DNA of 64,000 nt, from the NCBI GenBank assembly GCA_026770705.1, contig JANJGN010000006.1:9486001-9550000 (forward strand), read 5' to 3'. The notes beneath the pieces are model-generated. The model did no database searches, was not told where the DNA came from, and worked only from the letters and a program-made list of their open reading frames with translations. This DNA is from Isurus oxyrinchus. Lineage: Eukaryota. Both the position numbers and the translations under genes were made by a program. Numbering within the stretch: position 1 is the stretch's first letter; each line of letters opens with the position of its first letter. Shown piece after piece: positions 6,299-61,679 of this stretch.

Positions 6299-6639
6299 GT
6301 AAGAAATGACCCCCCCACCCCCCATCCACCAAACCCTTCAGATTTTAACACTTTATTCCATTGCATTTCTTTGTTTTGGTTCCGTGACAGGGTTTTGTTG
6401 AGGTCGGGCGGGAGCGGGACCCCCGACCTTCGCCAAAATCCTTAGGGCCACAGTGTGTCTCCCCCTTTCCCCCTCCCTCTCCCTGACTCCCCCTCCCTGA
6501 ATTCCTGTTGTGTGGCTCCGCGTTGGGATCTTGCTGATCGGTGGGAGCTGCTTTTTTCTTCTCCTGCTGAAGCTGCCAGGCGTTGCATTGTGGGATTGTC
6601 GCATAGCGCAGGCCAAAAGTCAGTTCAAACTTTCAACTC

Positions 6640-7640
6640 GGCAGCCCCGCAATCCCCGCCCCGCACTGAGCCCCCCCCCAACCACCCGCAATCCCCCGCC
6701 CCGCACAGTCTCCCCCGTCCGCAATCCCCGTCATCCCCGCCCGCAGTCCCCCGCCCCGCACAGCCCCAGCGGCCCCCCTCCCGTCATCCCCGCCCCGCGG
6801 CAGCAGCCACCCCCCTCCCCGTCCTGTCCGCAATCCCCGCCCCGCACAGCCCCCCCCCCCCCCCCCGCTCCGCAATCCCCGTCATCCCCGCCCGCGCCAG
6901 CCCCGTCCGCCATCCCCGCCCCGCACAGCCCCAGCGCCCCCCCCCCCCCCCCCCCTCCCACCCGTCATCCCCGCCCCGCGGCAGCAGCCACCCCCCCCCC
7001 CGTCCTGTCCGCAATCCCCGCTCCGCACAGCCACCCCCCCCCCGCTCCGCAATCCCCGTCATCCCCGCCCGCGCCAGCCCCGTCCGCAATCCCCGCCCCC
7101 GCACAGCCCCAGCGGCCCCCCCCCCCCACCCGTCATCCCCGCCCCCGCGGCAGCAGCCACCCCCGCCCCCCCCCCCCCGCCCTGTCCGCAATCCCCACCC
7201 GCGCCAGCTCCCGTCCGCAATCCCCGCCCCGCACAGTCCCCCCCGCCCCGCAATCCCCGTCATCCCCGCCCGCGTCAGCCCCGTCCGCAATCCCCGCCCC
7301 GCACAGCCCCAGCGCGCGCCCCCCCCCCCCGTCATCCCACGCCCCGCGGCAGCAGCCAACCCCCCCCCCCCCACCTCAGTCCCGTCCTGTCCGCAATCCC
7401 CACCCGCGCCAGCCCCTCTCCGCAATCTCCGCCCCGCACAGTCCCGCCCCGCAATCCCCGTCATCGTCAGCCCCGTCCGCAATCCCCGCCCCGCACAGCC
7501 CCCCCCCCCCCCGCCCCACCGGCCTCGCAATCCCCGCTATCCCCGCTCCGCAATTCGCCTGCCCGTCAACGCATCGCACCTCCGACCCGCACAGCCTCGT
7601 CATCCCGTTCGCGCTGCGCCGGACCGCTCGTCTCCGCCGC
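6640..7640. repeat. C-rich, CpG-dense higher-order minisatellite
   Basis: Recurrent modules GTCCGCAATCCCCGCCCCGCACAGCCCC, CCGTCATCCCCGCCC and GCGGCAGCAGCC separated by poly-C. The GCGGCAGCAGCC module recurs every ~170-200 bp. Confidence 0.92.
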
Positions 7641-9261
7641 ATCCCGTGGTCCCGGTGGATTCATATTTAAATTATTTATTTATTTATTACAATGGGATTT
7701 TATCACCGTCCTCAACCCCACCTCCGTCTTTGCCGACAAACACCGTCACACTGCGTCAGGGTCCAAGTGGTTTATGGCCCGAGTAAACACGGCCAGGGTT
7801 GCACCCAGTTCACCAACTTTCACCTCGTCCATTTGGAGGGAGCGGGTCCATTTGCAGCGTGAAGTACTGAACCTGAACCCCCGCATCTGCTGGCCGGTTG
7901 TTGTTTGGGTGGGGGGTGGGGGTGGGGGTGGAGAAACAAAAAAGTGAACCGGGTTGCCAATGCCAGAAAACCCCTGTCGCTGCAGCCGATGTTCAGCAGG
8001 TTAAAATAAAGTGTACAGACGGCGCAAGATTCATTTGCCGCAACTTGCTGTTCAACTGTTTGTTTGGCAGAGCGCTAATGTTATTCAGTGGGCCCATTGA
8101 GAGTTGATGTACAGTCGAGGTGGTGGTGTTCTGGTTTATCAACGTGTCAGCGATATTAATCCACATGACTCTCTTCAAAATAAACCAACCTGGAATTCTG
8201 CACTCAGAATGAAAAAAATTTCAAACTCCCAAAGTAGTCAACTAGTATTTTTTTTTAAAAAAAACGTAAACATTATATTTGTCCAGATTTAAACATTGGG
8301 GGGAAAATCAGTTCTCTTAAAAATGGTTTTAATGCCCCAATTTGTCTTCATTTGAGCTACTTCCTTCACCGCAAAGTTAGTTTCATCGTTCCATCGAATT
8401 TTCCTGCCACTACAGTTAGTCAACAAAGCTTTGCATATGGCAGGGTGAGCATCTCTAATTGCTGTTATTGTACATTTCACTTCTGTGAGGTGTTCAGTAC
8501 AATGAAGGAACACTCATTAATAGTGTCACATGGGTCTGAATAGCTGACAGTACTGGACCTGTAAACCCCTCAAAATCATTCATTAAACAATAACTTGGAA
8601 CTAGTAATGAAAATAGTACAACTTTTAGTCATTTTCCTTCTCTCTTAAACACTCTGGCACCACATATCATTCCTTCAGAAGGTGCCACTCTCAAATCAGC
8701 CACTGGAAGGTGGGTAAGACTAGCCATGGCTCATCTCACCATCTAGTTTTGCCTCCCTTGTATGTAAGTGCCTTTTCACAGCTCAGTATATTTCCTTGTT
8801 AGTCTGCACACAGTTGGAGCTCACTGAGCAGGTGCCAAACTGAGTATTTGCACTCTCATATCATCTAGGTGCAATAACAGCTTGTTCCATTGGAGAAGCT
8901 TTAATGATATTCAATCTTAAAATAAACCCTTTTGTAGAATATAAATGTTACTACTTCCATAGTATCCTGTATTTCTGCATTAATTATATCACTTCATGCC
9001 ATTAATCGAAAAGCAGATCTGAGAAATAGACACCCTGCAAGTAGTCAACATATCTCTTGTGGTTATTTAACTTTTCATTATAAATTAATTATAATGATCA
9101 ATGATTATAAATGAATTAATTGGAAAAAAATAATCAATTATTAGGGCTAAAAAGATGACTAATATCTGACTGTTCACAAGGGGTCAATTTATAGAAACTG
9201 TACAAATATATTACTGAATGTTTTGCACTATTTATAGGCAAACTCTATAGGAAGATACAAA

Positions 9262-9482
9262 ACAAAAACAAAAATACCTGGAAAAACTCAGCAGGTCTGG
9301 CAGCATATGCGGAGAGGAACACAGTTAACGTTTCGAGTCCGTATGACTCTTCAGCAGAACACCTCTTTTCTATTTTTAATTAGTTCTGTTGAAGAGTCAT
9401 ACGGACTCGAAACGTTAACTGTGTTCCTCTCTGCAGAGGCTGCCAGACCTGCTGAGTTTTTCCAGGTATCTTTGTTTTTGTT
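9262..9482. mobile_element. Fold-back (palindromic) element, probably Penelope-derived, with a hammerhead-like motif in each arm
   Basis: ~100-bp inverted arms (9260-9360 / 9383-9483) with a 22-nt spacer. Flanking direct repeat TAGGAAGATACAAA (9248-9261) / TAGGAAAATACAAA (9483-9496). Confidence 0.85.
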
Positions 9483-11959
9483 TAGGAAAATACAAACTCA
9501 GTTTACTTGGGTACTGTGTAAGTTGATTATCTTTGCTACATCTTTGGAAATTGTCTAACGCCAAGGTTTAAAACTGAACAAAGTGGAAGAATCCCAATCT
9601 ATATTGAGGCCTTGTTCCACTAGTCACATTTATAAGCTGTCTATATTCCCTGCATGCTTTTTTAAACTCTTCCATCTCACAGACTCTCTGTTTTCCTTTT
9701 GTCTGCCCATTTATATTTCTCTATCTGAATAGTTCACTTCACAGGTTTTCCCTTTTCTTTATCTTTCTCTCTCTTTCTCTCTGACTCCATGAACTCCCAC
9801 TGTCTGCATTTTGTAGGACTATAATTCTTTTTGTAAATATATGCCTTCAATCATGCCCCTTCGTAACTGTCATCCTGGTTACCGTAAAGGAATCATCTAT
9901 CTTACACACAATGCTTATCAACACAAATGCATGTGTATTAGCTTGATTGCTGCTGCTATTGTGACACTACAATCACAGCTGTTGCTGCTCCCACCTTTAT
10001 CACAATTCCATGTTGTACAGAATTAAAATGTTTCAATTTATTTCAAGTGTGTTAGAAATGACTGATAACTGTCAAAATAAGCAGTTTATTTTGTGCCACC
10101 TACACCAAATCAATTCTTCAGGGAAATAATTTAATATGCAAGTTATTCAACACTGATGCAGCCATTGTGATATAAAGACCAGAGTAGCTAAATAGTGATT
10201 CCTTACATTATCCAGTACAACAAAGTAAATGTATTGGATACAATTTCAAATTCTTCTAGAATTGTGTACTTGTAAAATAATTGTGATTACACCGAAAATA
10301 TCACAAATCATTACACTCAATGAAATGGTTACTGCATTACTCACCATGGTAATTTGACTTATCTGTGTAAAAGAAAGTCAAATTCTGCAGTAATTGTCAA
10401 CAATTTTTCTTACTCATATTAGTATTTTAGCTTTTGATGCAGTCTGCTACTTGTTCATGTATGAAAGTGCATTAATTGAGTTTGAGTTGTCACACAAATG
10501 GTTAGAAGTGGATCAATTTGTCACTAAAAGTAAACATTATAGATCCTCCATTCTTGTTTGGAGTCATTTTGTCTTAGAAAATGGATTTGAGTTCTTTCTA
10601 GCAACAAAGTGGGTATAAAGTCAAATAGACTCGTCAGAGGTTTCATATAGATTCCCAAGAGATATATGAATTTAATGCTGTGATGTAGCAGTTGTTGCTA
10701 GCTGGTAACATGAATGCTTAGTAAAAGTCATAGCCACTGTATGTTTGTTTTATCTCCCATATTTTGTAATTCCCATCAATTGAATCCTGTAGGCAACCAT
10801 ACTACATTTTACCAAATTTAATATACTTTCAGTAAAGTTGGATGCCAGTGCAGACTTTGTTTGTTAAAAGAGAAAACCTTTGTTTTTAGTAAGAAAAAAT
10901 AGAGCTTTCCTCACCAAAGTATGGCAGTTGTGATTTGTACATGTGGTGCAAAGGCATTTTCAAAGTAAAATACCTTTACCCAGAACAGTAAACAGAATTT
11001 TAGATGAAAATTGTTAACACAAGCATAAATTGCAAAGCTCAGACTCTTTGGGTGAGGTTTCAGATGGCAGTTTATGGTGAGGCTTCATGCAAATTTATCA
11101 GCTTCAAAACTTCTTCAGTAAAGGCTTATTAATTTATATAACAAGCCTAACTTCACTGGTGATTTGTAACATTGTGTTGAAACCATGATTGTGCAAAGTG
11201 AAGCCCAATCCAAATAATTAAAGCTGTAGCCAGTGGCTGTGAAATAATGTAAATCTTGACAAATGTAATTTCTTTAAAGCTTTGTTACTTTGTAGCGCCA
11301 GAAAGATACAATGAAACAACTGTACTACATAAATAGTGAATACCTTTCAATATTAGACTTTACTTTGACTTTTCAATTTCCTAGGCAGTATTAGAAATTG
11401 CACAACTATAACATTCCTTTGGCAGGTCTGCCAGCTTTGGGGAAAATATATATTTCATAGAGTTCAGTCCTCCAGTGGTGCCAATTAGCAGTTTATCTCA
11501 CCCAGCAGGTTGACCATATCTCCATAACAACCAGCATGTTAGCGTCAAAAGCAGCTGGCTGACTACTAACTTTAGTATTAAGCTTGACCTCGGATGTCCT
11601 CAGATCACTGTGTCTTGTACCACTTTAATTTTATTTTAAGGCAGAATCAGTAAGTTGGAGAAAATATGTTTCACGAAGAGGGATGGTATTTATCTAAAAT
11701 ATATTATAAATCACCCAATATTAAAATATAATCAAGAATTCGAGTGCCTTTGAAGGACAAGGTTGCAAAACCTTTTGACCACTAAATTCCTATTCTGAGT
11801 TTAAGGTTAAAGTACATTATTGGATCAAAATAGTTTGAAAGATATCTCTTATCTAGTCAGTAACATTCAATATTGACACTGGTGCATAAAATGGAAGAAC
11901 AGAGAATTCTAGTTTCTCGCCCAATATTTATTACTCAAGTCTCACAACCGAAAGCATAC

Positions 11960-35759: not shown

Positions 35760-36179
35760 TATGTGTGAGACTTGTTGGAAATTTCACTTGAGTAACTTTT
35801 TCTAATATTCTTGAAGATACTAGCATTTATGTATTCTTGGACATTCCTAACACATAGGTGAGAATGATGTCCCTCCTGCCCCAAATCCTCCAAAGGTTCT
35901 TTGGGATCTGTCAGTGTAAATCTCTTGATTGTCTAAGGAGCATTTGAGAAACAAAACATAGGGAATGTGAAAACAAATTCCACATTGAATCACATCACCT
36001 GTCCCAAGTCTTTATGACTTTTATGTCATCTTGTGCAGATGAACTAAAGTCTTCTCATTTTGTTTAATACTTATGGCTTTTGTTATGTTTGTGGCCTTGT
36101 GGTCTGCATTGTTGTTTATAATGGGATACAGTGGCATCTCTGGGCATAGCTGGCAAGGAGCCTATATTCCAAATGCCAT

Positions 36180-36308
36180 CCGATTAAAGGTCGTTGACTT
36201 GAAATAGTAACTCTTTCTCTCCCCACAGTTGCTGAGACCTGCTGAATATTTCCAACATTTCCTGTTCTTATTTCAGATTTCCAGCGTCTGCCCTGTTTTG
36301 CTTTTGTT
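36180..36308 (+). mobile_element. Single-arm relic of the hammerhead-bearing element family
   Basis: ..ggtcgttgacttgaaa..cacag.tgctg.gacctgctga..tttcagatttccagc, similar to the right arm and tail of 56007-56245. Confidence 0.65.
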
Positions 36309-40658: not shown

Positions 40659-41042
40659 CATAGAAGAACCATAGACCACTACAGCACAGAAAAAAATAGG
40701 CCATTCAGCCCTTCTAGACTGTGCCGAAATATTATTCCGCGAGTCCCATTGACCTGCACCCAGTCCATAACCCACCAGACCTCTCCCAACATATGTCTAT
40801 TATTCAATATCTTTGTTTATGTTGCACAGGAGAATTATTTTTGAAGTTATATTAATAATTAATGTAAACAGCACTTTGTGGAGTTCTGTAATACTAGATT
40901 TCATAACAGAATGGAAGATAATTATCTAAAGGTAAACATTGGGCAATTAAATAAGTGGGCCATAGAATATCAACTCACATCATATAATTGTGTAATACCG
41001 CTCTATCCAATTTATTCTTAATCGAACCATAGAACACTACAG
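40659..41042 (-). mobile_element. CR1 3' fragment interrupted by a templated insertion
   Basis: catagaagaaccatagaccactacagcacaga..ggccattcagccc (reverse CR1 end) runs to ~40800 and resumes as ctatccaatttattcttaa at 41003. Confidence 0.65.
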
Positions 41043-42695
41043 TTAATTCGGTTAATTAAATAAAGTAAATCTCTGACATTGCTTCAGATTAAGTCAGAAA
41101 ATAGGGCCACAGAACATAAATCTGAATTAGTGAAAAATAAATATAAATCAGATGCAGGAATAACTTTATCAGCAAAGCAATAAAGATTTTGAACATTCTG
41201 TATGTCAAGCAAAAACATGTGGATTTTGTGTTCAGCAGCAAAATGATAGCGCTTGGCACTGACCTCAAAGAAAACTGCTCACAAAGTTTGTTTGATCTCT
41301 GTGAAGTGCATTTTCCCTTTTCCCAGTGTCATTTCGAATCTAGCATTAAGTCAATGGGATCTCCTGGTGTCCAGCTGCAATTATGCCATCAAGCAGGAGA
41401 GGCAGCCAATCGCATTGAAGCATTCTCACATATGGCAAACCAGGAAATAAAATGCACTGAATTTCACTTGCAACACAAATGATTGAATAATTGGTACATA
41501 CACTTGGGATTAAGATTGAAGCTAAGATATCATAAACTTTGTAAATAAACATAATTTCAAATCTATTAACATTTTAATATTAATAGTGAAATTTTACAGT
41601 CCGCAAATATAAATTTAGTTTTCCAAAACCAGTGAGTGATTAGCAGCAGTTATAAAGATAGTATGCCATTTAAAAACCCAGTTATACTTCTTTCAACAAA
41701 GTGTAACTTTTCGAGGAGTTTTTAACAGCAAGACCAATAGCATAAAAGGGTGAGCTCTTGTCAGTTTAGTGATTTCTACTTGAGGATGGGGGACCTAAAC
41801 TATTACTTCTATCAAGAAGTGTAGAATCACTGACAAAAGCTTATGGATTCTTCGTATGTGCAGATTCAAAATGTTACTGTCAATTTCGGAGGAATAACGC
41901 TGGTGAACAATTTTGCAAAATCTGAGGCATTAGTAATATTATAACTGCAGCTGACTGTTAAAATGTGCATATTAGGACCACAGTTAGGTGGAGTTTGATA
42001 GGAAAGAATTACTTGGCCTATCCTTGACCTTTTTTGTATTCTTTACTGAATTGAATGTTTCTAACGTTGTACAGGTCGTTGTACAATATTACAGTCCATT
42101 TTGGTAAAAATCCTCAAGTGATCAACTGGCTTATGAAACCTGAATGCTGGGTCAATTGATTGTTTGCCCTTTTATAGAACCTGCCTGATTTTTCAATCAG
42201 CGATTTGAATGGAATAAAAGTAGGGCATGTTCTATAAAAGTCAGCAATCTACATGCTGGTTGCCTGTGTTTACATGGGATAAGGAAGCCAGTTTTACCAG
42301 ATTACTTTTCATGGGTCTACATGCTGTCAGGATATGAGATGCTTTTAACTGTACTATCACAGTTAGCCAGTATTTTGACACTGCTCTCTTGTAATCTAAA
42401 TACAAGCATTAATGTAAAAGGACCTTCAGATGAAGAGCCTTGTCCTGCATAAGGTGTTTCCTAATCTTAATTTGTAGCGGTATTACACAATTATATGATA
42501 TGAGTTGATATTCTATGGCCCACTTATTTAATTGCCCAGTGTTTACCTTTAGATTATTATCTTCCATTCTGTTATGAAATCTAGTATTACAGAACTCCAC
42601 AAAGTGTTGTTTACATTAATTATTAATATAACTTCAAAAATAATTCTCCTGTGCAACATAAACAAAGATATTGAATAATAATAGATATATGTTGG
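40786..42695. repeat. ~217-bp near-perfect inverted repeat pair (40786-41002 / 42476-42695)
   Basis: The arms are reverse complements apart from a few substitutions and a 3-nt indel; spacer ~1.47 kb. Confidence 0.92.
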
Positions 42696-44170: not shown

Positions 44171-44377
44171 TATGAGTGACCTTACTGATAAATTTCTACG
44201 CACTGCCGATCCTCAGCCCTGGCACCTGTTGTCTCAGCTGCTGACCGTGCTTGCTTCTGTTTATTGTGAAATGTTGTCTTTGCTAAGGGTTATGAGTAAG
44301 CATCATTATTATTATTTTAAAATTTATATCAGTGCAAATAGGAGCAAAACACAAAAATCAATAATGAACCTAAAGGG

Positions 44378-44495
44378 ACTGATGGAAGATCACTGAACTG
44401 AAATGTTAACACTCTTTCTCTCTCCACAGATGCTGCCTGACCTGAGTATTTCCTGTTTTTATTTTAATTTCCAGTATCTGTAGTTTTTGCTTTTA
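44378..44495 (+). mobile_element. Single-arm relic of the hammerhead-bearing element family
   Basis: ctgatgg-aagatc..gaaatgttaac..ccacagatgctgcctgacctgagt..tttccagtatctgtagtttttgctttta. Confidence 0.65.
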
Positions 44496-44584
44496 TCCCA
44501 GTAATTCTGCAATCTGGACCAAATTGAATCAGTGCACACCCTCCATCGTCTTGTGTGGCACTATCAACATGCTAAATTGGATAG

Positions 44585-47145
44585 ATTCAGAATTGATCTA
44601 GCAACTCATCTATGAGGCATTGTGGAGCATCATTAGCAGCAGAATTGTATTCAACAGATCCTCACTCTGCTATTATCAAGCCAGGGGATCAACACTGATG
44701 CAGTGAGGAGTGTAAGAGAGTATGCCAGGAGCAGCACAAGGCAATCCTAAAAAGGGGCGCCAATCTAGTGAAGTTACAATACCGGTCTACATGCATGCTA
44801 AACAACTGAAGTGGCATGCTATAGATAGAGCAAATCGATCCCACAACCAAGGGGATCTGATCAGAGCTCTGTAGTGTTACCACGTCCAGTCATGAATGGT
44901 GGTGGACAACTAAGCAAATAACTGGAGGAATAGGCTCCACAAACAACTCCATCTTCAATGATGGGGGAGCCCACCACATCAATGAAAAATACAAGGCTGA
45001 AGGGTTTGCAAACATCTTCAGCCAGAAGTGTTGAGTGGTTGATCCATCTCCGCCTCTTCCTCATCCCTCTTGAGGTCCCCCAATATCACAGATGACACAA
45101 TTTGATTCACTCCACCTGATATCAAGAAATGGCTGAAGGCACTGGATGCAACAAAAGCTATGGGCCCTGACAAAATCCTGGTAGTAGTACTGAAGACTTT
45201 TGCTACAGAACTAGCTGCATCCCTAACCAAATTGTTCCAACAGAGCTGCAACACTGGCATCTATCTGACAAGTGGGAAATTGTCCTCGTATGTCCTGCCC
45301 AGAAGAAGCCAGACAAATTCAATCTGGCCAATTACTGCCCCATCAGTCTACTGTCAGTCATCTGCGAAGTGATGATTTTGCTATCAAGTGGCACTCATTC
45401 ACCAGTAATTTGCTCACCAGTGCTCAGGGCCACTTGGCTCCAGAACTCATTGCAGCCTTGGTCCAAGCATGGGCTAAAGAGTTGAATTCAAGAGGTGAGG
45501 TCAGAGTGACTGCCCTTGACTTCAAGGTAGCATCAAGGAGCCTTTGCAAAATTAAAATAAATGGGAATCGGGGGGAAACTGTCCACTGGTTGGAGTCATA
45601 CCTAGTACAAAGGAAGATGGTTGTGAATGTTGAAGGCCAATCATCTCAGTCCTGAGACATTGCTCGAAGGAGTTTCTTAGTTAGTGTCCTAGGCCCAAAC
45701 ATCTTCAGCTGCTTCATCAATGACCTCTCTTTCATAAGTTCAGAAGTGGGGATGTTTGCTGTTGATTGCAGTGGCCTGTGCCTGAAAGCAGAAGGACCTG
45801 GACAGCATTCAGGCTTAGGCTGATAAGTGACAAGTAACATTGCCTGGCATTTGTGTGGTGTGAATGTCCATCTCTCTTTACTTTCAATAAATCACCTTCA
45901 CTGAAACCCCCACTCTAAACATGTAGCATGGTTACAGCACAGAAGTAGACTACTCACCCAGTTATGTCGTGCTGGCTCTCTGGAAGAGTGACTCACCAGT
46001 GGCTCTCCCTTACCTTTTCCCCATATCCCTGTACATTTTCACTTTGGATAATTATCCAATTCTCTTTTGAAGGCTCCAATAGAATCTGCCCCCACGTACT
46101 CTCAGGCAGAGCATTCCAGATCCTAACCATGCAGTGTTTAAGAAGTTTTTCCTCATGTCGTCATTGCTTCTTTTGCCAATTGCCTTAAATCAGTGTCCTC
46201 TGATTCTTGATGTTTCCATTGGAAATGGTTTATCCCCAACTACTCTGTCCGGATCCCTCATGATTTTAAAAGCTTCTATCCAATCACCTCTTGTGCAGTG
46301 GGAACAGTCACAACTTTTCCAATCTATCCACATAGCTGAAATTCCTCAACCCTGGGATAAATCTCATGAATCTATTCTGCACTCTCTCTAATCCCTTCCC
46401 ATCCTGGGGGGTTAGAATTGACCAGAAACTTAAGTGGACCAGCCATATAAATACTGTGGCTACAAGAGCAGTTCAGAGGCTGGGAATTCTGCAGCAAGTA
46501 TCTCAGTTCTTGACTCCTTCAAGCCTGCCCACCATCTACAAGGCATACCTACAGCGTATGAACTGCAGCAGTGCAAGAAGCTGGATGACCACCACCTTTC
46601 CAATTTGAGACGGACAAACAAAAAGCTGGACCTGTCAGAGACACCCACATCCTGTGAAAGAATAAAAAGTAAGAGTGTAATGGAATATTTTCCACTCTTT
46701 AACACTCAAGAAGCTTGACACTACCCAGGACAAAGCAACTGCTTGATCATGCCACCCACCACCTGAAATATTTATTTCCTCCATCACCAAAGCACAGTGG
46801 CAGCAGTGAGTACCACGTATGCAATTCACTGCAGTAACCTGTCAAGCCTCCTTTGACATTACTTCCCAAACACGTGACCCCTGACACCTAGAGGGACAAG
46901 GGCAGCAGATGCATGGGAACACCACTACCTCGCAACCTTGCAACACGCTGACTTGGAAATATATCACACTTGCTTCGCTGTCACCGAGTCAAAATCCTGG
47001 AACTCCCTTCCATTGTGGTGTTCCTACACCCCATGGACTGCAGCAGTTCAAGACGTGGCCGCTCACCACCACCTTCTCTAGCAATTAGAGGCAGACAACA
47101 AATGCTGGTCTTTCCAGCAACGCTCACACCCTAGAAACAAAAAGT
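44585..47145 (+). mobile_element. Degenerate CR1-clade LINE (ORF2 RT region to 3' end) with nested insertions
   Basis: KAMGPDKI..VLKT.A.ELA..LTKLFQ, ANYCPISLLS, VTALDFK and LGPNIFSCFINDL motifs broken by frameshifts. An antisense CR1 3' fragment is nested at ~45918-46400 and an extra 3'-end copy at ~46545-46668. Confidence 0.88.
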
Positions 47146-51420: not shown

Positions 51421-51780
51421 TTATCGTCATGGGTGGTGGTGAAGAAACATCTTGCCATCTAATGAAAGCCGCCATATCATTGTTTCTGAGGAAATAATGC
51501 ATTCTGCCACATGAGAACATCTTGTAATACTTGTAATCGTATTAGCTTGTGTCACTAATCCAGAAATCACGTCAAAAGGACAATTTGTTCTCTCAAATTC
51601 TTGAAAGATGTCATCCATTCTCAGATATGGAACACCTACTGTGCTGAAACCCATTAGCACTTGAAACTCAGCCAGGCATTGATAATGGCTGCAGCTCTCC
51701 AAACAACAGACTACTTTCTAGGAAGGGAAGGATAGAAGGTGCTCATTTTAATTTCAAAGAGCCGGTTGATGAATGTACTG

Positions 51781-51920
51781 GAGCTCTGAAGAAGGATCAT
51801 ACAGACTCTAAACGTTAACCCTGTTTCTATATCTACAGATGCTATCAGACCTCCTGAGTTTTTCCAGCATTTTCTGTTTCTATTTCAGATTTCCAGCATC
51901 CGCAGTATTTTGCTTTTATC
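51781..51920 (+). mobile_element. Single-arm copy of the hammerhead-bearing family, retaining canonical CTGAAGA
   Basis: CTGAAGA-A-GGATC-ATACA-GACTC-TAAACGTTAAC..cagatgct..gacct.ctgagtttttccagc..gatttccagcatccgcagt. Confidence 0.75.
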
Positions 51921-52705: not shown

Positions 52706-55700
52706 AAGTTGTAAAGACTTTATTAATACCTAAAGAACACTAGAATGAGTATTTTTGACATACCCAGATTTAATGGGGTAACTCCCAACTTTGGCTTCAA
52801 TTTTACATAGTTTGAAAAAAAATCTTTTATGAATACTGGGCAACTTAATGGTCATCTATTGATTCCTAAAGTTAATACCCACTTGTTTAAAAGTTTACCC
52901 TGTATACCTTGCGTTTTCGGGCAATGCACATCAAACTGCAGAGAAAGAGTTTGCATGCTTGTGGCAGCTGAATACCGCAGATGAATTGTACTCACCCTGG
53001 TAGAGTGTAATGGTTAAATGTAAGGAATAACTTCCTTTGGCTTACTGTCATTATATTTTAGAATTAGTTTTTAGACTTCTCAATAATGATAAGGAATTTC
53101 GAATACCAAACGTGTATCAAAATTCCATTGCACACGGCGCATAATTTTCCTATCTTTACTTCAAATGTTTGGAAAATTTGCGTGCCATGAGGTAGAATTT
53201 CCAACAAGTAGTAAGACTTCTCACCGAAAGCACAAAGCCAGAAAATGAATACATTTAACTAGCTGGGTGTTTGCATTCCATTCTGAGGAGGGTCTGAACT
53301 AAGTTTCACAACTTTTGTGTAGTTTGACAATGTCATCTTGTACTTCTTTACTCCAAATTTCAGGGTTTTGATGATCCTTCACCTGCTCAAGCTGCTTGCA
53401 CATAAACTAATAATGCATGCAGGGACGGGGTCCAAATGTCATTGACTTCAATTAAATCACTTAAATGTAGCAGCAAGTAAATGTGAATCATTGTTGAATT
53501 TACAACATGCTGCTATTTAACACTGGAGGTATGTGCAACATCAGTGAGGTGGTGGGGGAAATGATGTTTCAGGTCAAAGGTAGACACCAGTGTCATGAGA
53601 CGGGGTATCTGGGTTCAGGTGCAACATGTGCACATGAAAGAACTTTTCCCGTTTCCTATTGATCTGTGGAAGACAAAAAAAACTTCAACACAGAATAAGT
53701 TCACTACTTATCTATTTGGCTGCGAGAGTTGAGTCGCATGCAAAGTGCGTTGATGTCATTTAATGTTTCAGAAATCAGTGGATATCACTTATGTTCTGAA
53801 AATCCCACAGCAGAGTTTGCTTTCATTGAGATTATGGCAAGAATTGTACACTTTCAGCCTTGTTGCTTGGGTTTTTTTTAAAGGACATAACTGAAAAACC
53901 CATTGCTAAAATATTTGGCATTTTGAAGGAGTAACAATGATGAATATTCACTGTAGTTAATTGGGATTTATCGTACTAATAAGCATGTGATTATTACAAA
54001 AATTTTATAAAAGTGCTCTCTGATATCTCTTATTCATGTTTTTCTCAGCTGTAACATTTGGTCTAATATCAATTTCCATACGTTATTCAATTTGACCTTT
54101 TGTGCGCAGAAAATAATTTTTGATAACTGGACAAAATGTATCCATAATGTCCCTTTCTTGAGCTGTCGGGAGGTATTGTCAATGTCTATGCTGTCATAAC
54201 CCTGTATTTCTTCAATTGCAGGAAAGTTTTACTGGCCATGAAATTTTTCAGGCCATTATCCTTAAAGCCACAACTGGATTGTGCCCCAGTGATATCCTCC
54301 AGCCCCACCATAGCTTGCAGGGTTAGCAGGAGGGCACCTCATATGTGCAGTCAATCACTTTGGATGGTTTAATAATGCTTAGCTGCCCATACTTGCTTGA
54401 AAACCTGTGCCCAGATCCCCCAATCCCAGTCATTCAGCGCAATTGGGTTTATTGATAAACGTAAAAAATATCTATCTGGGGCTTGTGTGTCTTGGATCCC
54501 ATGTATGTTCTTCCAATTATTCAGCATATTACAAATGTTATAAGGGAAGGTCCTGTCTGAGACAAAGGAATGCTTAGGGAGACCATTGCCAAGGCTCTTC
54601 TCCTGGCTATTGCTTTGCAAGGGGTGGCTATTGCTTTGTAAGGGGCAGACAAAGATTTTATCCCTCACAGGACAGTCAGGGAACTCCAAGAAATGAAGAA
54701 GATCTAATACAATGGGTCTCCTCCAACCTCCACCTGAGGAATCTGAGATAGTGTATCTAATTGCTGTATGGCCTCCTTTCAAAATGTAGGCAGAAATATG
54801 TCCATGCACAATGCATTTGTTTATTATTTATTATTGCTAGATTCGCGAACTTTCAAGTTATCATGCAATAAAATTCTACTTTGTATGTGTGTGGCTCTGC
54901 ATAACTAATTACTGTTGTTTTGTTGTCATTTATAGGACATTGTTAATATTTTCAAGATTTCAAGAAATCCCATAGCAAACAAATCTTAAAGCCTAACAGC
55001 GTGTTTATAAAAATAACCATTATTTAATGAAAGGGAAGAGATCAGGTTTCAGAAACCAGAATTGTGTGTGAAATAAAGAAGTAGATGTAGTTTTAATTTA
55101 TTTTTACAGCATTGTGGTATGGAAAGTTATAGCTTTCAATTAGTCCTTTCAACGAATGTTTACATAATTTCATCAAATCTAGAACCAGTTTGCCCACATA
55201 GCAACTATGATAGTACTTCAAAGCAACTCATTATGCAATGTTTCTGAGAGATTGGGTGCCATTATAATTACAAATCTTTTCCTTCAGGTTAGAATTCGTT
55301 AGTTTGCACAAAGAACGATTGACTCAAAATGCTGGGTTTCTTCATTTCTGCTTTCAATTAATCATGCTTTGAAAAGTTACACTTTTTTTTAAAAAGACAT
55401 TCACAAAGTTTAATCAACACCGTAATCTAAACTAAATTAAATGCATTGTACAAAATGGTTTGTGATGAGAATAATCTAAAATTGTTCACTTTAATAAAGC
55501 TGCTGCAATAATTGGTTGATTACAAATCATCAAAGTAGCCAGTTTATTGGTCCTACTAGAAACGAACATTTCCCTATCAGCAGATCAAAGTTCTACAGAA
55601 AGCGTGGATTTATATTCTGTCTAATTGTAAAAGAAAATGGGGTCGCTTTTAACTCCCAGGTGAGAATGCAGCCTAACGAGTGGCACATCTGGGAGCGACA

Positions 55701-56006
55701 GCGGGGAGGCTCAGAAGATTTTAATGGTCGGGTCTCATTGATGTGCTGCTAGCCAACTTCCCGAAACAAAGCGGATGGGAAGCGGCTGCTCGGCCATTAA
55801 AATCAGGCAGCAGGAAGCTGCTGTTGGGAACCAGAAGAAATGGTTCCCGGCACTATGGTAAGTGGTGAGGCAGGGATGGTGATTAGGGAGTGGGAGCATT
55901 GCAGGGGAGGCCCAAGTTTTCCTTATGGGACCCTGAGGAGCACTTCTGCTTCTCCTGGCCTGCAAGAGAAACTGCAAAAAAATTAAAAATAGCTTCACTA
56001 TTCTGG

Positions 56007-56245
56007 AAAACAAAAACAGAATTACCTGGAAAAACTCAGCAGGTCTGGCAGCATCGGCAGAGAAGAAAAGAGTTGACGTTTCGAGTCCTCATGACCCTTC
56101 GACAGAACTGGAGTTCTGTTGAAGGGTCATGAGGACTCGAAACGTCAACTCTTTTCTTCTCTGCCGATGCTGCCAGACCTGCTGAGTTTTTCCAGGTAAT
56201 TCTGTTTTTGTTTTGGATTTCCAGCATCCGCAGTTTTTTGTTCTT
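56007..56245. mobile_element. Young fold-back element, probably Penelope-derived, with twin hammerhead-like motifs
   Basis: 103-bp arms (56007-56109 / 56112-56214) with one mismatch and a 2-nt centre, plus a 31-nt tail. Perfect 13-bp TSD TTCACTATTCTGG (55994-56006 / 56246-56258). Confidence 0.92.
56111..56151 (+). ncRNA. Minimal hammerhead-like motif with a variant core
   Basis: GAGTT-CTGTTGA-A-GGGTC(ATGAG)GACTC-GAAA-CGTC-AACTC: helix I 5 bp, helix II 5 bp, GUC triplet. Position A6 is replaced by U. Confidence 0.6.
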
Positions 56246-57779
56246 TTCACTATTCTGGGCCTCTTCTGGTCCAGGATCCACTACCCAAGAAGCTTGCCTT
56301 GGCGGGTAGCCACCATGTAGATTGCTAGAGATTAGAGTAGGCCCCGATGATATCTTCAGAGCTCAATCTGCATATTTTAAGAAGGACAGTGGCCTCGGGC
56401 AGATGTCCTTGGCGCCTGTACTTTAAAATTTCTATCAGATCAGAGTGAGAGGCCAGCTGGTTTGTCTCCCACTCCTTGTTAACTGTCACTCCACTCAATG
56501 TTTGCCATGCAAGAAGAGCTAAAATTCTGCCCAAAGTGTTGTGCTGACCTGAACTGTATTTATATTAGTGAGAAAATGGTAAATTATTCCTATACTTCAA
56601 AAGCATAGAAGATTTAGTATATATAAATGTGATCCTAATAAGTGGGGAATAAAGTAAAAATCTATAAAAAGCAACAGGAAAGCACAGTATATTATTTGTA
56701 ACCCAGGAAATTCATATACTTGTGTTTCATCTGCATCAAATAAACTTCTACAGGATATTGAAAGCTGAATTCTTCACACAGTTTGTAACATTTATTACTT
56801 GAATGATCTTTTAAAATTACAAGTTTTTTTTAAAAAAAAGCAACTACAAAAATACAAAATTATTTTAAAGGCATACAAGTCTACGAAGTATTGTGCATTT
56901 ACGAGCTGATAGTTCATAACCAAACCAAGCAAACCAAGCTGGCTATGGGCCCCTTTAATTGGGGTTCCTGCCCATAGCCAGCCCGATTGACACGCAGGAA
57001 GCCCTTTAGGCAGGCAGCTTGGGTCACAGGCCCAAAGCCTGTGAGAGCAGGTCAGTGTATTCTGGGAGTGAGATCGTTGGAAGATGCAGTAACGGGTGTG
57101 CGCGGGGCCCTATTGGAGGGGTAAAGTGGCACCTGATTGTGGGGTTAGTTCTGGATTCAGTGGGCTAGGTGGGGCAGTCTCTACGGTGATCGAGGGGAGC
57201 AGATAGTTTTCATGGGTTCTGACGGCAGGTCTGGGGAAGAGCTGACCAATCATGGTGGAGTGGGTTTAATGGGTCGGTTGTTGCACTTGGATGAACCGCT
57301 CCTGCTCCTCCTGGCCCATAAGTCATGCTGTAAAGACACTTCCCTCGTGGATTCAGCCCTTTTGGCCGCTTTTCAGCTGCTGAGTTTTTCCAAGGCCAGT
57401 GAAACCCAGCTGCCTATGGTTGAAAATAGAATGACTGTTAAATGATAGCAGGCAGCCTCATTATACTATTTTAATGATCAACTTGTTACCTGGGAGCAGG
57501 TTGGTTGGGTGCCTTTGCCCCACCTCTGTTTATAATCAGAAGCAGACCGGTTCAACTGTTTGGGTTTTAAACTCTGAAAACTCCCAAAAATGGGTGAGTC
57601 GGGGTTGTAATATTCTCTGCTATTTTTCCTAAATGTGTGACTACTTCATAAAAGCAGTACATTGTCTGTGAAGCCTTTTGAATTGGCTTCAGTAAGTTAT
57701 TTCTTCCTCTTTTTGTTTATCGTACAGAACTTTGTTACTACATTGTTGTTATCTATAAGTATTCATCTCTTAAACATGT

Positions 57780-59347: not shown

Positions 59348-61679
59348 GTAAGCACAGATCCTATTGTTAAATGTCCCATGGTTTTCAAATACAGTGAGTC
59401 CTCTGGTTGCTGGTAGGGATGCATTAATGGAATGTCAACGTTCTTATAAGAATATGAATTGATTGGCTGCCTTTGTTCCCTTCAACTGATCCTACGTTTT
59501 TTTTTAAGTCTTTTCCAGTGACTGTTTTATGTTTAGCTCTTTCTTCATAATACAGTCCAACTATTGGTTGAGTAACTGCCTCAGCCAGGCACCAGCACAC
59601 AGAATTTGAAAGAGATCATTCCATATGGCCCTGGGAAGCTTTTTCTTTCCCAGATCTATGTTTAATTTTTTTAAGATGCTGTTAGCTTTGTTTCTCTCAT
59701 TCCTTACAATTTTTCCCATTAGCTCCACTCTACTTTTTGAATCCAGTTTCAACAGCAACACTTTCCATTCTGGTGCTGAAAGGTCAGTGTAATGTTCAAT
59801 AATTTGCTTTAATCTAAACCTGAAAGAAGCACCTCCACTTCACCAACATGGGGGAAGAGTTTCTCATTGTACTTCATTAGAAAAATCATAACCCAGTTCT
59901 TTTTAAATACACTTACACACAGAGGAAACCTACCTATCCTTTCCAAGTTTTCCATTTCACACACCAAGTCGTTTTGGGATCTGAATATCACTCTAGTTTC
60001 ACCCTAATTAGTGCAAAAGTATAGTTTGTAGAACTATTCCATTAGGAACCAGGTTGACACTATCCAACTGCTTTTCACTTTGAGGTGACTGCACAAAGGG
60101 AAGGTGAGTCAGCTGATTTAAACACAGTTCCAAAGATTTTCATCTCATTACACCTCATTTGCATAATTTTGTGTTATAATATTTTACAGACACACAAGAA
60201 ACGTATCACTATTTCTTGTGTCAGGAGTGACATTGAATGTTATACATCAATTATTTGTATTTACTTGAAAATGCTACCATTGGAAGTCACCATAGTCATT
60301 AACTAAACTTCAGTATATAGTTAGTCACGATAGCAGTTGGCAGTATTCAGCTCTTGTTGATGTCCATACATGTGTTGAGTCAAGCTCCCTCTAAACTGTT
60401 CTGCACATTTATGAAAATGTTGAATCATTCTGAAAGTTAACTAAATGCATCTATTCTTGCTAAGTTCCAATTATTAATTTGCCCAGAGACAGCTTCTTTT
60501 GTGTTAGTGTTTGCATCCAAATAGATGATTTGGCTGGCATCTCAACATTATTACCTAAACGTTATAGTTGAAAGCAGAAAGCTGCTCATCTGAAATTTGC
60601 TCTTTGTTAGACCCTGTCAATCACACTTCATAATTCTCTTGTGCATTGGAGCTGGCTTTAAAGAGTGTCTGCACACAAACGCTTATTTTATGTGATATAA
60701 ATTTAATCTATGTGTGCTGAGATTCAGAAGTTCTTGGGTCTCCTACGAGGTACCTTGAGAAGAAAGAGTAAGTTTGAGCAAAAGGTTTAAAAACAAGTTC
60801 GCTGAAACATTAAACTCAAAACAGCTTTCCTTTTTATGCAGATGCTGCCCGACCTGCTAATTATCTCTAGCATTGCTTTATGGGGTTTCAGATTCCTTCC
60901 TCTTCTCATGTTGGCCAAGTTGTTGTTAACTTGGATTTGTTTTTTTTGCATGCTTATTCAGATTATTTAACTGGTGAGGTAGAAACTATAGCCATCTTTC
61001 TGTAAAAGCTGACCTGAATCAATTATCTAGAATTATCTTCCAGACACGGTCTGAAGGAACGTATGCAATGACTAAATCAGCTACATCTTATAGTCAGATA
61101 CAGGTTTACGATAGCCATAATGTTTTGGGCTTTGACTTGGCTCAATCCTTTGTTCAGGACTTATTGAATCAAATGGTAAAACAGTTTCCTTTTTAGGAAC
61201 CAATTATAAAGTTGCTCAGCACCGCCAAGCTGCAACTTTAGCAAAGGAGACACTGAACTGCCATACACTTAGTCAGTCAATAGCAGTTGGAAAAGTAGGC
61301 AATGACCCAACATCTCTTGTTTAAGTAACTTGCTTTATCAGTTTGTGGGATATAAATACAAAAAATGAATGGGACTCAATGCACCAAATCCTACAAACAC
61401 CTCTAATAATGAAAATGTATTTGTTATTGTAGAAAAAAAAGGTAAGAATGTTTTTAAACTTCCATGTTTCATGAGAGTGTAGGAATGACAAGGTCATCTA
61501 ATAAAAGGTTAACCTAGAGAGAAAATGGAAGGGAAAAGGCAGGTTAGGAGAATTTTCAGTGGCTCTAATTTATGCTGACAATTCATCAGTTGTTTCCTTT
61601 AGTCAATGATTTAGCTCAATACTGTACAAACATGATCATGGAATAACCATACTTACATTGATGGTAAACTACTGACAGG

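What the first reader, a model, noticed from the sequence alone, without database searches (positions are those of the whole stretch)
56007..56245. Mobile fold-back element built from two inverted minimal hammerhead-like motifs with a non-canonical core
Seen: a 103-bp perfect-but-one palindrome with a 31-nt tail, flanked by an exact 13-bp TSD and inserted into an older MITE, so it moved as a unit and recently. Each arm reads helix I - CUG(U)(U/C)GA - extra A - 5-bp helix II - GAAA - palindromic ACGU helix III - GUC - helix I. Established: Penelope-like elements carry minimal type-I hammerheads with palindromic helix III that act as dimers, and they often insert with an inverted pLTR. Inference: this is a non-coding, retrozyme-like derivative consisting of little more than an inverted pLTR pair. 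The conserved A6 is replaced in all four arms of the two fold-back copies while both helices are kept, which suggests a variant ribozyme or a structure retained for RT recognition. A transcript in either direction contains one motif and its antisense.
Basis: partly seen in the sequence, partly recalled or inferred. Interest (0 to 1): 0.8.

Follow-up and report, generated by a model that had tools for sequence, protein, structure and literature searches.

The report
Shark Penelope retrotransposon hairpin insertion
This is a recent, very short, mirror-image insertion of a common shark jumping-gene end; that shape is already known for Penelope retrotransposons, and the only unusual point is that its small self-cutting RNA motif carries a change that probably weakens or disables it.

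Summary
The sequence description holds: 103-bp arms with 1 mismatch, a 31-nt tail, an exact 13-bp TSD, and a minimal type-I hammerhead in each arm with A6 replaced. The 'older MITE' host is unsupported. The unit is about 135 nt, running from hammerhead helix I to the tail. It occurs in the window as 2 fold-backs and 4 decayed single-arm copies; all 4 single-arm copies keep A6. Exonised copies appear in predicted proteins of six shark genera. A head-to-head inverted copy, a 30-40-nt tail on one end and a TSD is the published insertion signature of Penelope-like elements. The two fold-backs have different centres, so the palindrome probably forms at each insertion rather than moving as a unit. 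U6 is inherited: two white-shark loci of the same young subfamilies imply it too, so four arms probably reflect one old mutation. Covariation is not significant, the fold-back RNA is a 103-bp duplex, and no tandem array or autonomous ORF was found. Best reading: minimal Penelope-derived insertions carrying a weakened or dead hammerhead. A known architecture with a modest new variant.

The parts
55994..56006 (+). Left target-site duplication (13 bp)
   Evidence: Exact direct repeat with 56246-56258; unique at this spacing in the window
56007..56109 (-). Inverted, tail-less copy of the pLTR-like unit; its 3' end faces the left TSD
   Evidence: 102/103 complementary to the right arm
56070..56109 (-). 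Left-arm minimal type-I hammerhead-like motif, core CUGUCGA (U6, C7), C3 at 56105, helix I 4 bp
   Evidence: Descriptor scan; same reading as the white-shark COMMD9 exonised copy
56107..56111 (.). Head-to-head junction: 3-nt ACT/AGT microhomology plus a 2-nt loop; probably template-derived
   Evidence: The single-arm copy at 51.8 kb matches 8 of the 9 nt upstream of C3; the junction mechanism is inferred
56111..56151 (+). Right-arm minimal type-I hammerhead-like motif: helix I 56111-15/56147-51, core CUGUUGA with U6 at 56119, extra A, helix II 56124-28/56134-38, GAAACGUC with putative cut after 56146
   Evidence: fits the min-HHR consensus of PMC4209133 Fig. S3 except A6
56161..56233 (+). 3' stem-loop: 56161-56172 pairs with 56222-56233 in the tail; it encloses a 27-nt block identical between the two young subfamilies; candidate RT-binding or initiation signal (inferred)
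   Evidence: Inverted repeat I19; the corresponding stem forms in the MFE folds of 3 of 4 tail-bearing copies and in part in the fourth; A/B comparison
56112..56214 (+). Direct copy of the pLTR-like unit up to the proximal end site
   Evidence: 3 of the 4 fold-back arms end at this T-rich site to within 1 nt
56215..56245 (+). 31-nt tail on one arm only (PLE tail)
   Evidence: Homologous to the 3' ends of the single-arm copies; a 31-bp tail on one inverted pLTR is described in PMC3846280
56246..56258 (+). Right target-site duplication
9260..9483 (.). Second fold-back of a sister subfamily (86% to the 56-kb arms): 101-nt arms with 5 mismatches, 22-nt spacer, no tail, U6 and C6 cores with GUU, 11-14-bp TSD with 1 mismatch
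51777..51918 (+). Older single-arm copy with tail; core CUGAAGA (A6); no TSD found
44374..44497 (+). Older decayed single-arm copy with tail, A6 kept
36177..36308 (+). Older decayed single-arm copy with tail, A6 kept
60795..60893 (+). Very decayed single-arm copy (nhmmer E 1.4e-5)

Best explanation
It is a young, extremely short insertion of a shark Penelope-like-element end (pLTR plus tail, about 135 nt, starting at the hammerhead). The palindrome was made during this insertion. SHOWN: the anatomy, the TSD, the one-sided tail, the shared start of all copies at helix I, and single-arm relatives. FROM LITERATURE: a PLE RT-GIY-YIG protein cuts both DNA strands and primes reverse transcription at two internal RNA sites a tail-length apart, on uncleaved RNA. 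INFERRED: a PLE protein supplied in trans made a staggered cut 13 bp apart. One 3' end primed cDNA at the distal site (arm with tail) and the other at the proximal site (arm without tail). Both ran to the template's 5' end just upstream of helix I and were joined head-to-head through 3 nt of microhomology; fold-back of a single cDNA would give the same junction. The hammerhead is inherited from the PLE. In these young subfamilies A6 changed to U once, which probably leaves cleavage very weak or absent, tolerated because cleavage is not needed for insertion. The finished fold-back is probably a dead end: its transcript is a 103-bp duplex that hides both motifs.
For: ARCHITECTURE. An inverted 5'-truncated copy plus a 30-40-bp tail at one end is typical of PLEs (PMC8557442). 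A 31-bp tail on one inverted pLTR, head-to-head palindromes and 8-10-bp TSDs are described in rotifer PLEs (PMC3846280). Opposite-strand min-HHR pairs 100-700 bp apart are reported (PMC4209133). In vitro, both strands are cleaved and extended, two RT starts define the tail, and HHR mutants insert normally (PMC11167929). MADE AT INSERTION. Arms within a copy are 99% and 95% alike against about 86% between copies; centres are 2 nt and 22 nt; one copy has a tail and one does not. Three of 4 arms stop at the same T-rich site. All copies keep the whole motif 5' of the cut site, so templates were uncleaved, and their upstream 400-nt flanks share no match longer than 22 nt. U6 INHERITED. White-shark XP_041047373.1 has V (GTN) over G5-N6-N7. 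XP_041052712.1 reads VLSK like the 56-kb left arm. The older-type XP_041039447.1 has E (GAR), meaning A6. So 2 of the 3 named proteins whose match spans the core imply U6. The single arm mismatch TCG/TTG fits CpG decay. WEAK RIBOZYME. A6C gives a Mg2+ rate over 10,000-fold below the Mn2+ rate in one HHR (PMC7151607); min-HHRs barely cleave even as dimers. With U6, positions 4-7 pair with the AACG of the opposite core strand in the MFE of 2 of 4 arms (-12.4 against -10.0 kcal/mol for the open core). The whole fold-back folds as one hairpin, -201 kcal/mol.
Against: No autonomous RT/GIY-YIG partner was found: 0 of 238 window ORFs of at least 62 aa hit such a Pfam family, and 0 of the 18 plus 1 protein hits carry one. 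PLE membership therefore rests on RNA motif and insertion anatomy. Only two fold-backs were seen, from different subfamilies, so each could copy its own hairpin master. Both young copies are fold-backs and all 4 old ones are single-arm without TSDs, which the model does not explain by itself. Core positions other than 6, 7 and 17 are unchanged between the two subfamilies, and the one helix II change (G-U to A-U) keeps the pair, which is compatible with continued selection. The U6 zipper is weak in the other 2 arms, including the probably ancestral UC form. A6U itself was not measured in any paper I could read. The outside U6 calls are inferred from amino acids, not DNA.
Confidence: 0.7

Rival explanations
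1. The fold-back is itself the propagating unit: a non-autonomous hairpin element transcribed whole and retrotransposed in trans by a PLE protein.
For: Both young copies in the window (2 of 2) are fold-backs with TSDs and similar arm length, 101-103 nt. pLTR-bounded units can be moved in trans (PMC3846280).
Against: Centres (2 against 22 nt) and tail presence differ between the two copies. A whole transcript is a near-perfect 103-bp duplex that buries the 5' strand of the 3' stem. The identical anatomy arises at integration in PLEs generally.
Confidence: 0.15
2. The U6 motif is a working hammerhead variant, active as a dimer with help from the PLE protein or Mn2+, and kept by selection. This is compatible with the best explanation's insertion mechanism.
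For: The rest of the core, G10.1-C11.1, the palindromic C15.2-G16.2 and an NUH triplet are intact in 4 of 4 arms. Helix II is 94% paired over 7 copies, with one G-C/A-U double change between young and old copies. A natural C6 hammerhead still cleaves with Mn2+ (PMC7151607). The anole PLE HHR is protein-assisted.
Against: Covariation is not above shuffles (65-94 of 500 reach the observed score and percentage paired). 56 of 56 published min-HHR representatives have A6 (their descriptor required the core, so this is biased). No head-to-tail partner copy exists for dimer formation in the window. Inserted copies derive from uncleaved RNA.
Confidence: 0.17
3. It is a class II MITE or fold-back DNA transposon with 103-bp TIRs, or a microRNA-like hairpin gene.
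For: Long inverted repeat bounded by a TSD. Rfam miRNA models match by shape (E to 2e-17).
Against: One-sided tail, single-arm relatives with that tail, a hammerhead core and variable centres. All miRNA scores are far below gathering thresholds (77.6 against 160 bits).
Confidence: 0.03

Closest known systems
EN+ Penelope-like element insertions with inverted pLTR and tail (Penelope/Poseidon, Neptune; A. vaga Pen2a; anole PAc)
   Same: Head-to-head inverted copy, 31-nt tail on one end, TSD, and a minimal type-I hammerhead about 70-100 nt upstream of the 3' ends (PMC3846280, PMC8557442, PMC11167929).
   Different: No ORF body between the repeats; the insertion is reduced to two ~103-nt arms. All window copies start at helix I. 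The TSD is 13 bp against 8-10 bp in the rotifer. The clade is unassigned because no partner ORF was found.
Metazoan minimal hammerheads (min-HHR) of PLEs, Cervera and de la Pena 2014
   Same: Short helix I, extra nucleotide after A9, G10.1-C11.1, palindromic 15.2-16.2, NUH (both GUC and GUU occur in their Fig. S3), U-rich 3' flank.
   Different: U (once C) at position 6, against A in 56 of 56 listed representatives. No cartilaginous fish is among their listed species.
Animal non-LTR retrozymes
   Same: Non-coding, type-I hammerhead, pLTR-related, long TSD (PMC7229834; bioRxiv 10.64898/2026.07.22.740005).
   Different: Retrozymes are head-to-tail arrays of 150-450-bp units with canonical hammerheads that yield circRNAs. 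Here the copies are single or head-to-head, and the motif is minimal.
Natural position-6 hammerhead variant Bcep176 (C6)
   Same: A6 replaced by a pyrimidine in a natural hammerhead (PMC7151607, PMC3088659).
   Different: It is a phage ribozyme with C6 and measured Mn2+-preferring activity. Here the base is mostly U6 in a minimal motif, untested.

Membership tests
Penelope-like element (EN+) | ORF with telomerase-like RT and GIY-YIG endonuclease linked to this repeat | tested here: inconclusive
   None in the window (0 of 238 ORFs of at least 62 aa scanned against Pfam) and none among 19 protein hits. Truncated copies are not expected to carry it, and no shark genome could be searched.
Penelope-like element (EN+) | Minimal type-I hammerhead in the terminal repeat | tested here: met
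   4 descriptor hits against 0 in 100 shuffles, with position 6 relaxed
Penelope-like element (EN+) | Inverted 5'-truncated copy joined head-to-head | tested here: met
   2 of 6 window loci
Penelope-like element (EN+) | Optional 30-40-bp tail on one end | tested here: met
   31 nt at 56215-56245; absent from 3 of 4 fold-back arms, present on 3 single-arm copies and in part on the fourth
Penelope-like element (EN+) | Target-site duplication | tested here: met
   2 of 2 fold-backs; 0 of 4 decayed single-arm copies
PLE minimal hammerhead | Core CUGANGA with A6 | tested here: not met
   U6 in 3 arms and C6 in 1; no Rfam hammerhead match even at E up to 10
PLE minimal hammerhead | Extra nucleotide after A9, G10.1-C11.1, palindromic 15.2-16.2, NUH triplet, helices I and II | tested here: met
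   4 of 4 arms; helix II 5 bp, helix I 3-6 bp
PLE minimal hammerhead | Covariation in helices I and II | tested here: inconclusive
   7 related copies: 80% of cells paired, 2 pairs with double changes, 65-225 of 500 shuffles as high on four of five measures and 452 on the fifth
PLE minimal hammerhead | Self-cleavage as a dimer | not testable with these tools
   Needs an in vitro assay
Non-LTR retrozyme | Head-to-tail tandem repeats, each with a hammerhead | tested here: not met
   None of 31 TRF rows overlaps any copy; only the window was examined
Non-LTR retrozyme | Canonical type-I hammerhead with loop 1-loop 2 contacts | tested here: not met
   The motif is minimal and starts at helix I; no Rfam hit
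Non-LTR retrozyme | Circular RNA intermediate | not testable with these tools
   No RNA data available
MITE (class II) | Symmetrical TIRs abutting both TSD copies, fixed unit | tested here: not met
   A 31-nt tail separates one arm from the TSD; centres differ; single-arm relatives exist

The most novel reading that the evidence does not exclude
Lamniform sharks carry young, successful subfamilies of a ~135-nt non-autonomous Penelope derivative, a SINE-like parasite that starts at the hammerhead and ends at the tail. They integrate mostly as hairpins by two-site priming and have spread with a U6 core. That would be either natural in vivo evidence that PLE hammerhead catalysis is dispensable while the fold is kept as an RT landmark, or the first natural U6 hammerhead active with protein help. 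The many short hairpins would also be a genome-wide record of PLE priming sites and junction repair.
Probability: 0.3. Interest if true: 0.55.

Novelty: new variant of a known kind. Interest (0 to 1): 0.32.

Why it matters
The role of hammerheads in PLEs is stated to be unclear (PMC8557442), and the only reconstituted PLE inserts without cleavage (PMC11167929). A recently active family with A6 changed to U, beside older A6 relatives in the same genome, is a natural experiment on that question. Such short hairpins also put both priming sites and the junction within 250 bp, so two-site priming can be tested against cDNA fold-back by counting copies. The architecture itself is not new, and the evidence here is two loci plus protein-level inference.

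Tried and rejected
Rfam: 0 hits at gathering threshold in the window. At E up to 10 the region gave hairpin-shaped miRNA models and three other weak matches, no hammerhead. Host-MITE test: negative. Pfam scan of 238 of the window's ORFs (at least 62 aa; the GC-rich 6.3-8 kb block left out): 2 sub-threshold hits, no RT or GIY-YIG. The library of protein representatives gave 3 hits, all unrelated tandem-repeat proteins with summed scores; rejected. The longer-protein search with the 9.3-kb translation gave 0 of 79 candidates. An exact 27-nt motif in prokaryotic genomes and blastn against phages and plasmids gave no match. Folding z-scores of single arms were not significant (-0.8 to +1.5, 8 sequences), and the cofold of two arms did not give the active dimer. 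Neither counts against a hammerhead, since minimal motifs lack a stable helix III. Covariation was inconclusive. Literature: no paper on a shark PLE hammerhead or a natural U6 core appeared in the listings of searches. Lunse et al. 2017, the largest survey of PLE hammerhead variants, is not held and may already list U6 forms. Repbase, Dfam, shark genomes, viral and metagenome contig collections and bioRxiv supplements were not available, so the family may already be catalogued.

Full report
OBSERVATION. The palindrome is real: arms 56007-56109 and 56112-56214 differ at one base, a 31-nt tail follows, and an exact 13-bp duplication flanks the whole. That 13-mer is the only exact repeat at this spacing in 63,500 positions. 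A minimal-hammerhead descriptor with position 6 free finds only the four arms of this and a second fold-back at 9260-9483, and nothing in 100 shuffles; with A6 required it finds none. Three details need correcting: the 9.3-kb arms cut at GUU, one has C6, and the claimed host MITE has neither a second copy nor better-than-random terminal repeats.

THE UNIT. BLAST and an HMM find four more, older, single-arm copies at 51.8, 44.4, 36.2 and 60.8 kb, 57-77% identical to the young arms. Three carry the full tail and all four keep A at position 6. Every copy begins within a few bases of hammerhead helix I, and the 400-nt upstream flanks share nothing longer than 22-nt matches. The repeat is therefore a ~135-nt unit: hammerhead, pyrimidine linker, a 27-nt block identical between the two young subfamilies, a T-rich site where 3 of 4 fold-back arms end, then the tail. 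The tail pairs back on 56161-56172 to form a stem.

OUTSIDE THE WINDOW. No eukaryotic genome could be searched, so I used translations. One search returned 1 hit among 5 candidates, a white-shark cytochrome b5 isoform with a 30-residue exonised copy. A profile search returned 18 of 1934 candidates; 11 carry NCBI names, from Heterodontus, Carcharodon, Cetorhinus, Scyliorhinus, Chiloscyllium and Stegostoma. I read 10 of these; each is a host or hypothetical protein with a short piece of this repeat, and none of the 18 has an RT or GIY-YIG domain. Three named proteins span the core in a readable frame. XP_041047373.1 has valine over G5-N6-N7, which forces U6. XP_041052712.1 reads VLSKGHEDSKRQ like the 56-kb left arm, implying U6-C7 unless G8 is broken. 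XP_041039447.1, an older-type copy, has glutamate, meaning A6. A fourth (MFF isoform) was not interpretable. So U6 marks two young subfamilies found also in the white shark, and the window is probably from a lamniform shark (inference). The TCG/TTG mismatch between the 56-kb arms fits CpG decay.

WHAT IS KNOWN. Craig et al. (PMC8557442, passages) describe an inverted 5'-truncated copy next to the 5' end and a 30-40-bp tail at one end as typical of PLEs. Arkhipova et al. (PMC3846280, passages and Discussion) report a 31-bp tail on one inverted pLTR, head-to-head palindromes, 8-10-bp TSDs and mobilisation in trans. Cervera and de la Pena (PMC4209133, parts 1-2 of 4 and supplement parts 1-2 of 3) define the minimal hammerhead with the extra nucleotide, G10.1-C11.1 and palindromic 15.2-16.2, note opposite-strand pairs 100-700 bp apart, and find low activity even as dimers; all 56 listed examples have A6, under a descriptor that fixed the core. 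Frangieh et al. (PMC11167929, parts 1-2 of 4; supplement 1 gave only figure letters) show that a PLE protein cuts and extends both strands, starts at two internal sites that bound the tail, and inserts equally well with a dead hammerhead. Retrozymes are tandem arrays (PMC7229834, passages; bioRxiv 10.64898/2026.07.22.740005, parts 1 and 3 of 5 and passages). A natural C6 hammerhead is poor in Mg2+ and works in Mn2+ (PMC7151607 and PMC3088659, passages). I also saw passages of PMC6765202, PMC2377424, PMC6155905 and PMC8969392. Lunse et al. 2017 was not available.

MECHANISM. The most likely history is a staggered PLE cut 13 bp apart, with both 3' ends priming on uncleaved unit RNA, one at the distal site (tail kept) and one at the proximal site. 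Both cDNAs end just 5' of helix I and join head-to-head. At the 56-kb centre the bases upstream of C3 match the 51.8-kb single copy at 8 of 9 positions, so the 2-nt loop looks template-derived and the join uses 3 nt of microhomology. A single cDNA folding back on itself fits the same junction; the shared proximal end of three arms favours a defined start site. These steps are inferred. Arms within a copy are 99% and 95% alike against about 86% between copies, and the centres differ, which fits formation at insertion but, with two copies from two subfamilies, does not exclude separate hairpin masters.

THE RIBOZYME. Helix II is well paired (94% of cells) but covariation over 7 related copies is not above shuffles. 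U6 lets the two core strands zip together in the MFE of 2 of 4 arms, and only weakly in the other two. A transcript through the fold-back is a -201 kcal/mol duplex in which neither motif can fold. No tandem partner exists in the window. I judge the motif more likely a weakened or dead relic, possibly kept as part of the RNA that the protein binds, than a tuned variant. No measurement of A6U was found.

VERDICT. The feature is real and well described, but its architecture is the known PLE signature reduced to its minimum. The autonomous partner is unidentified, so family membership rests on motif and anatomy. What is new, as far as my searches reach, is a young shark subfamily pair with a U6 core. 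Interest 0.32.

Noticed in passing
window 56150-56200 and shark proteins P0004, P0008-P0015, P0020, P0023: The repeat is often exonised in shark gene models. Many inserts begin at the same methionine after a pyrimidine tract ending in CAG, and in two white-shark isoforms the insert ends at the CAG-GT site of the young subfamilies. It looks like an Alu-style source of cryptic exons, and the acceptor plus ATG may be the PLE's own 5' intron end and ORF start (speculative).
   Followed up: partly
window 9248-9262 / 9483-9497 and 56000-56006: At both fold-backs the target next to the tail-less left arm resembles the start of the tail in reverse complement, hinting at target-template annealing or target preference; n = 2.
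   Followed up: no
window, all six loci: Both young copies are fold-backs with TSDs, while all four old copies are single arms without TSDs. Either the insertion mode changed or hairpins lose an arm with age.
   Followed up: no
window 40798-41002 and 42476-42680: A 205-nt inverted repeat, 98% complementary, 1473 nt apart, around AT-rich sequence; either an inversion with inverted duplication or a long-TIR DNA element.
   Followed up: partly
window 6450-7520: GC-rich (64%) complex tandem repeat with nested periods of 14-201 nt and long open frames of low complexity.
   Followed up: no
window 55640-56430: The insertion sits in a GC-richer stretch (0.45-0.54) that may be an old repeat, but it has no second copy or significant TIRs in the window.
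   Followed up: yes
window 45269-45655: A 128-aa open frame resembling a decayed CR1/L2 LINE RT fragment (resemblance recalled; no Pfam hit).
   Followed up: no
window 31151-31251/33019-33119 and 20490-20546/21574-21630: Further long, diverged inverted pairs (70% and 86%) 1-1.8 kb apart, probably old DNA-transposon ends or oppositely oriented repeats.
   Followed up: no
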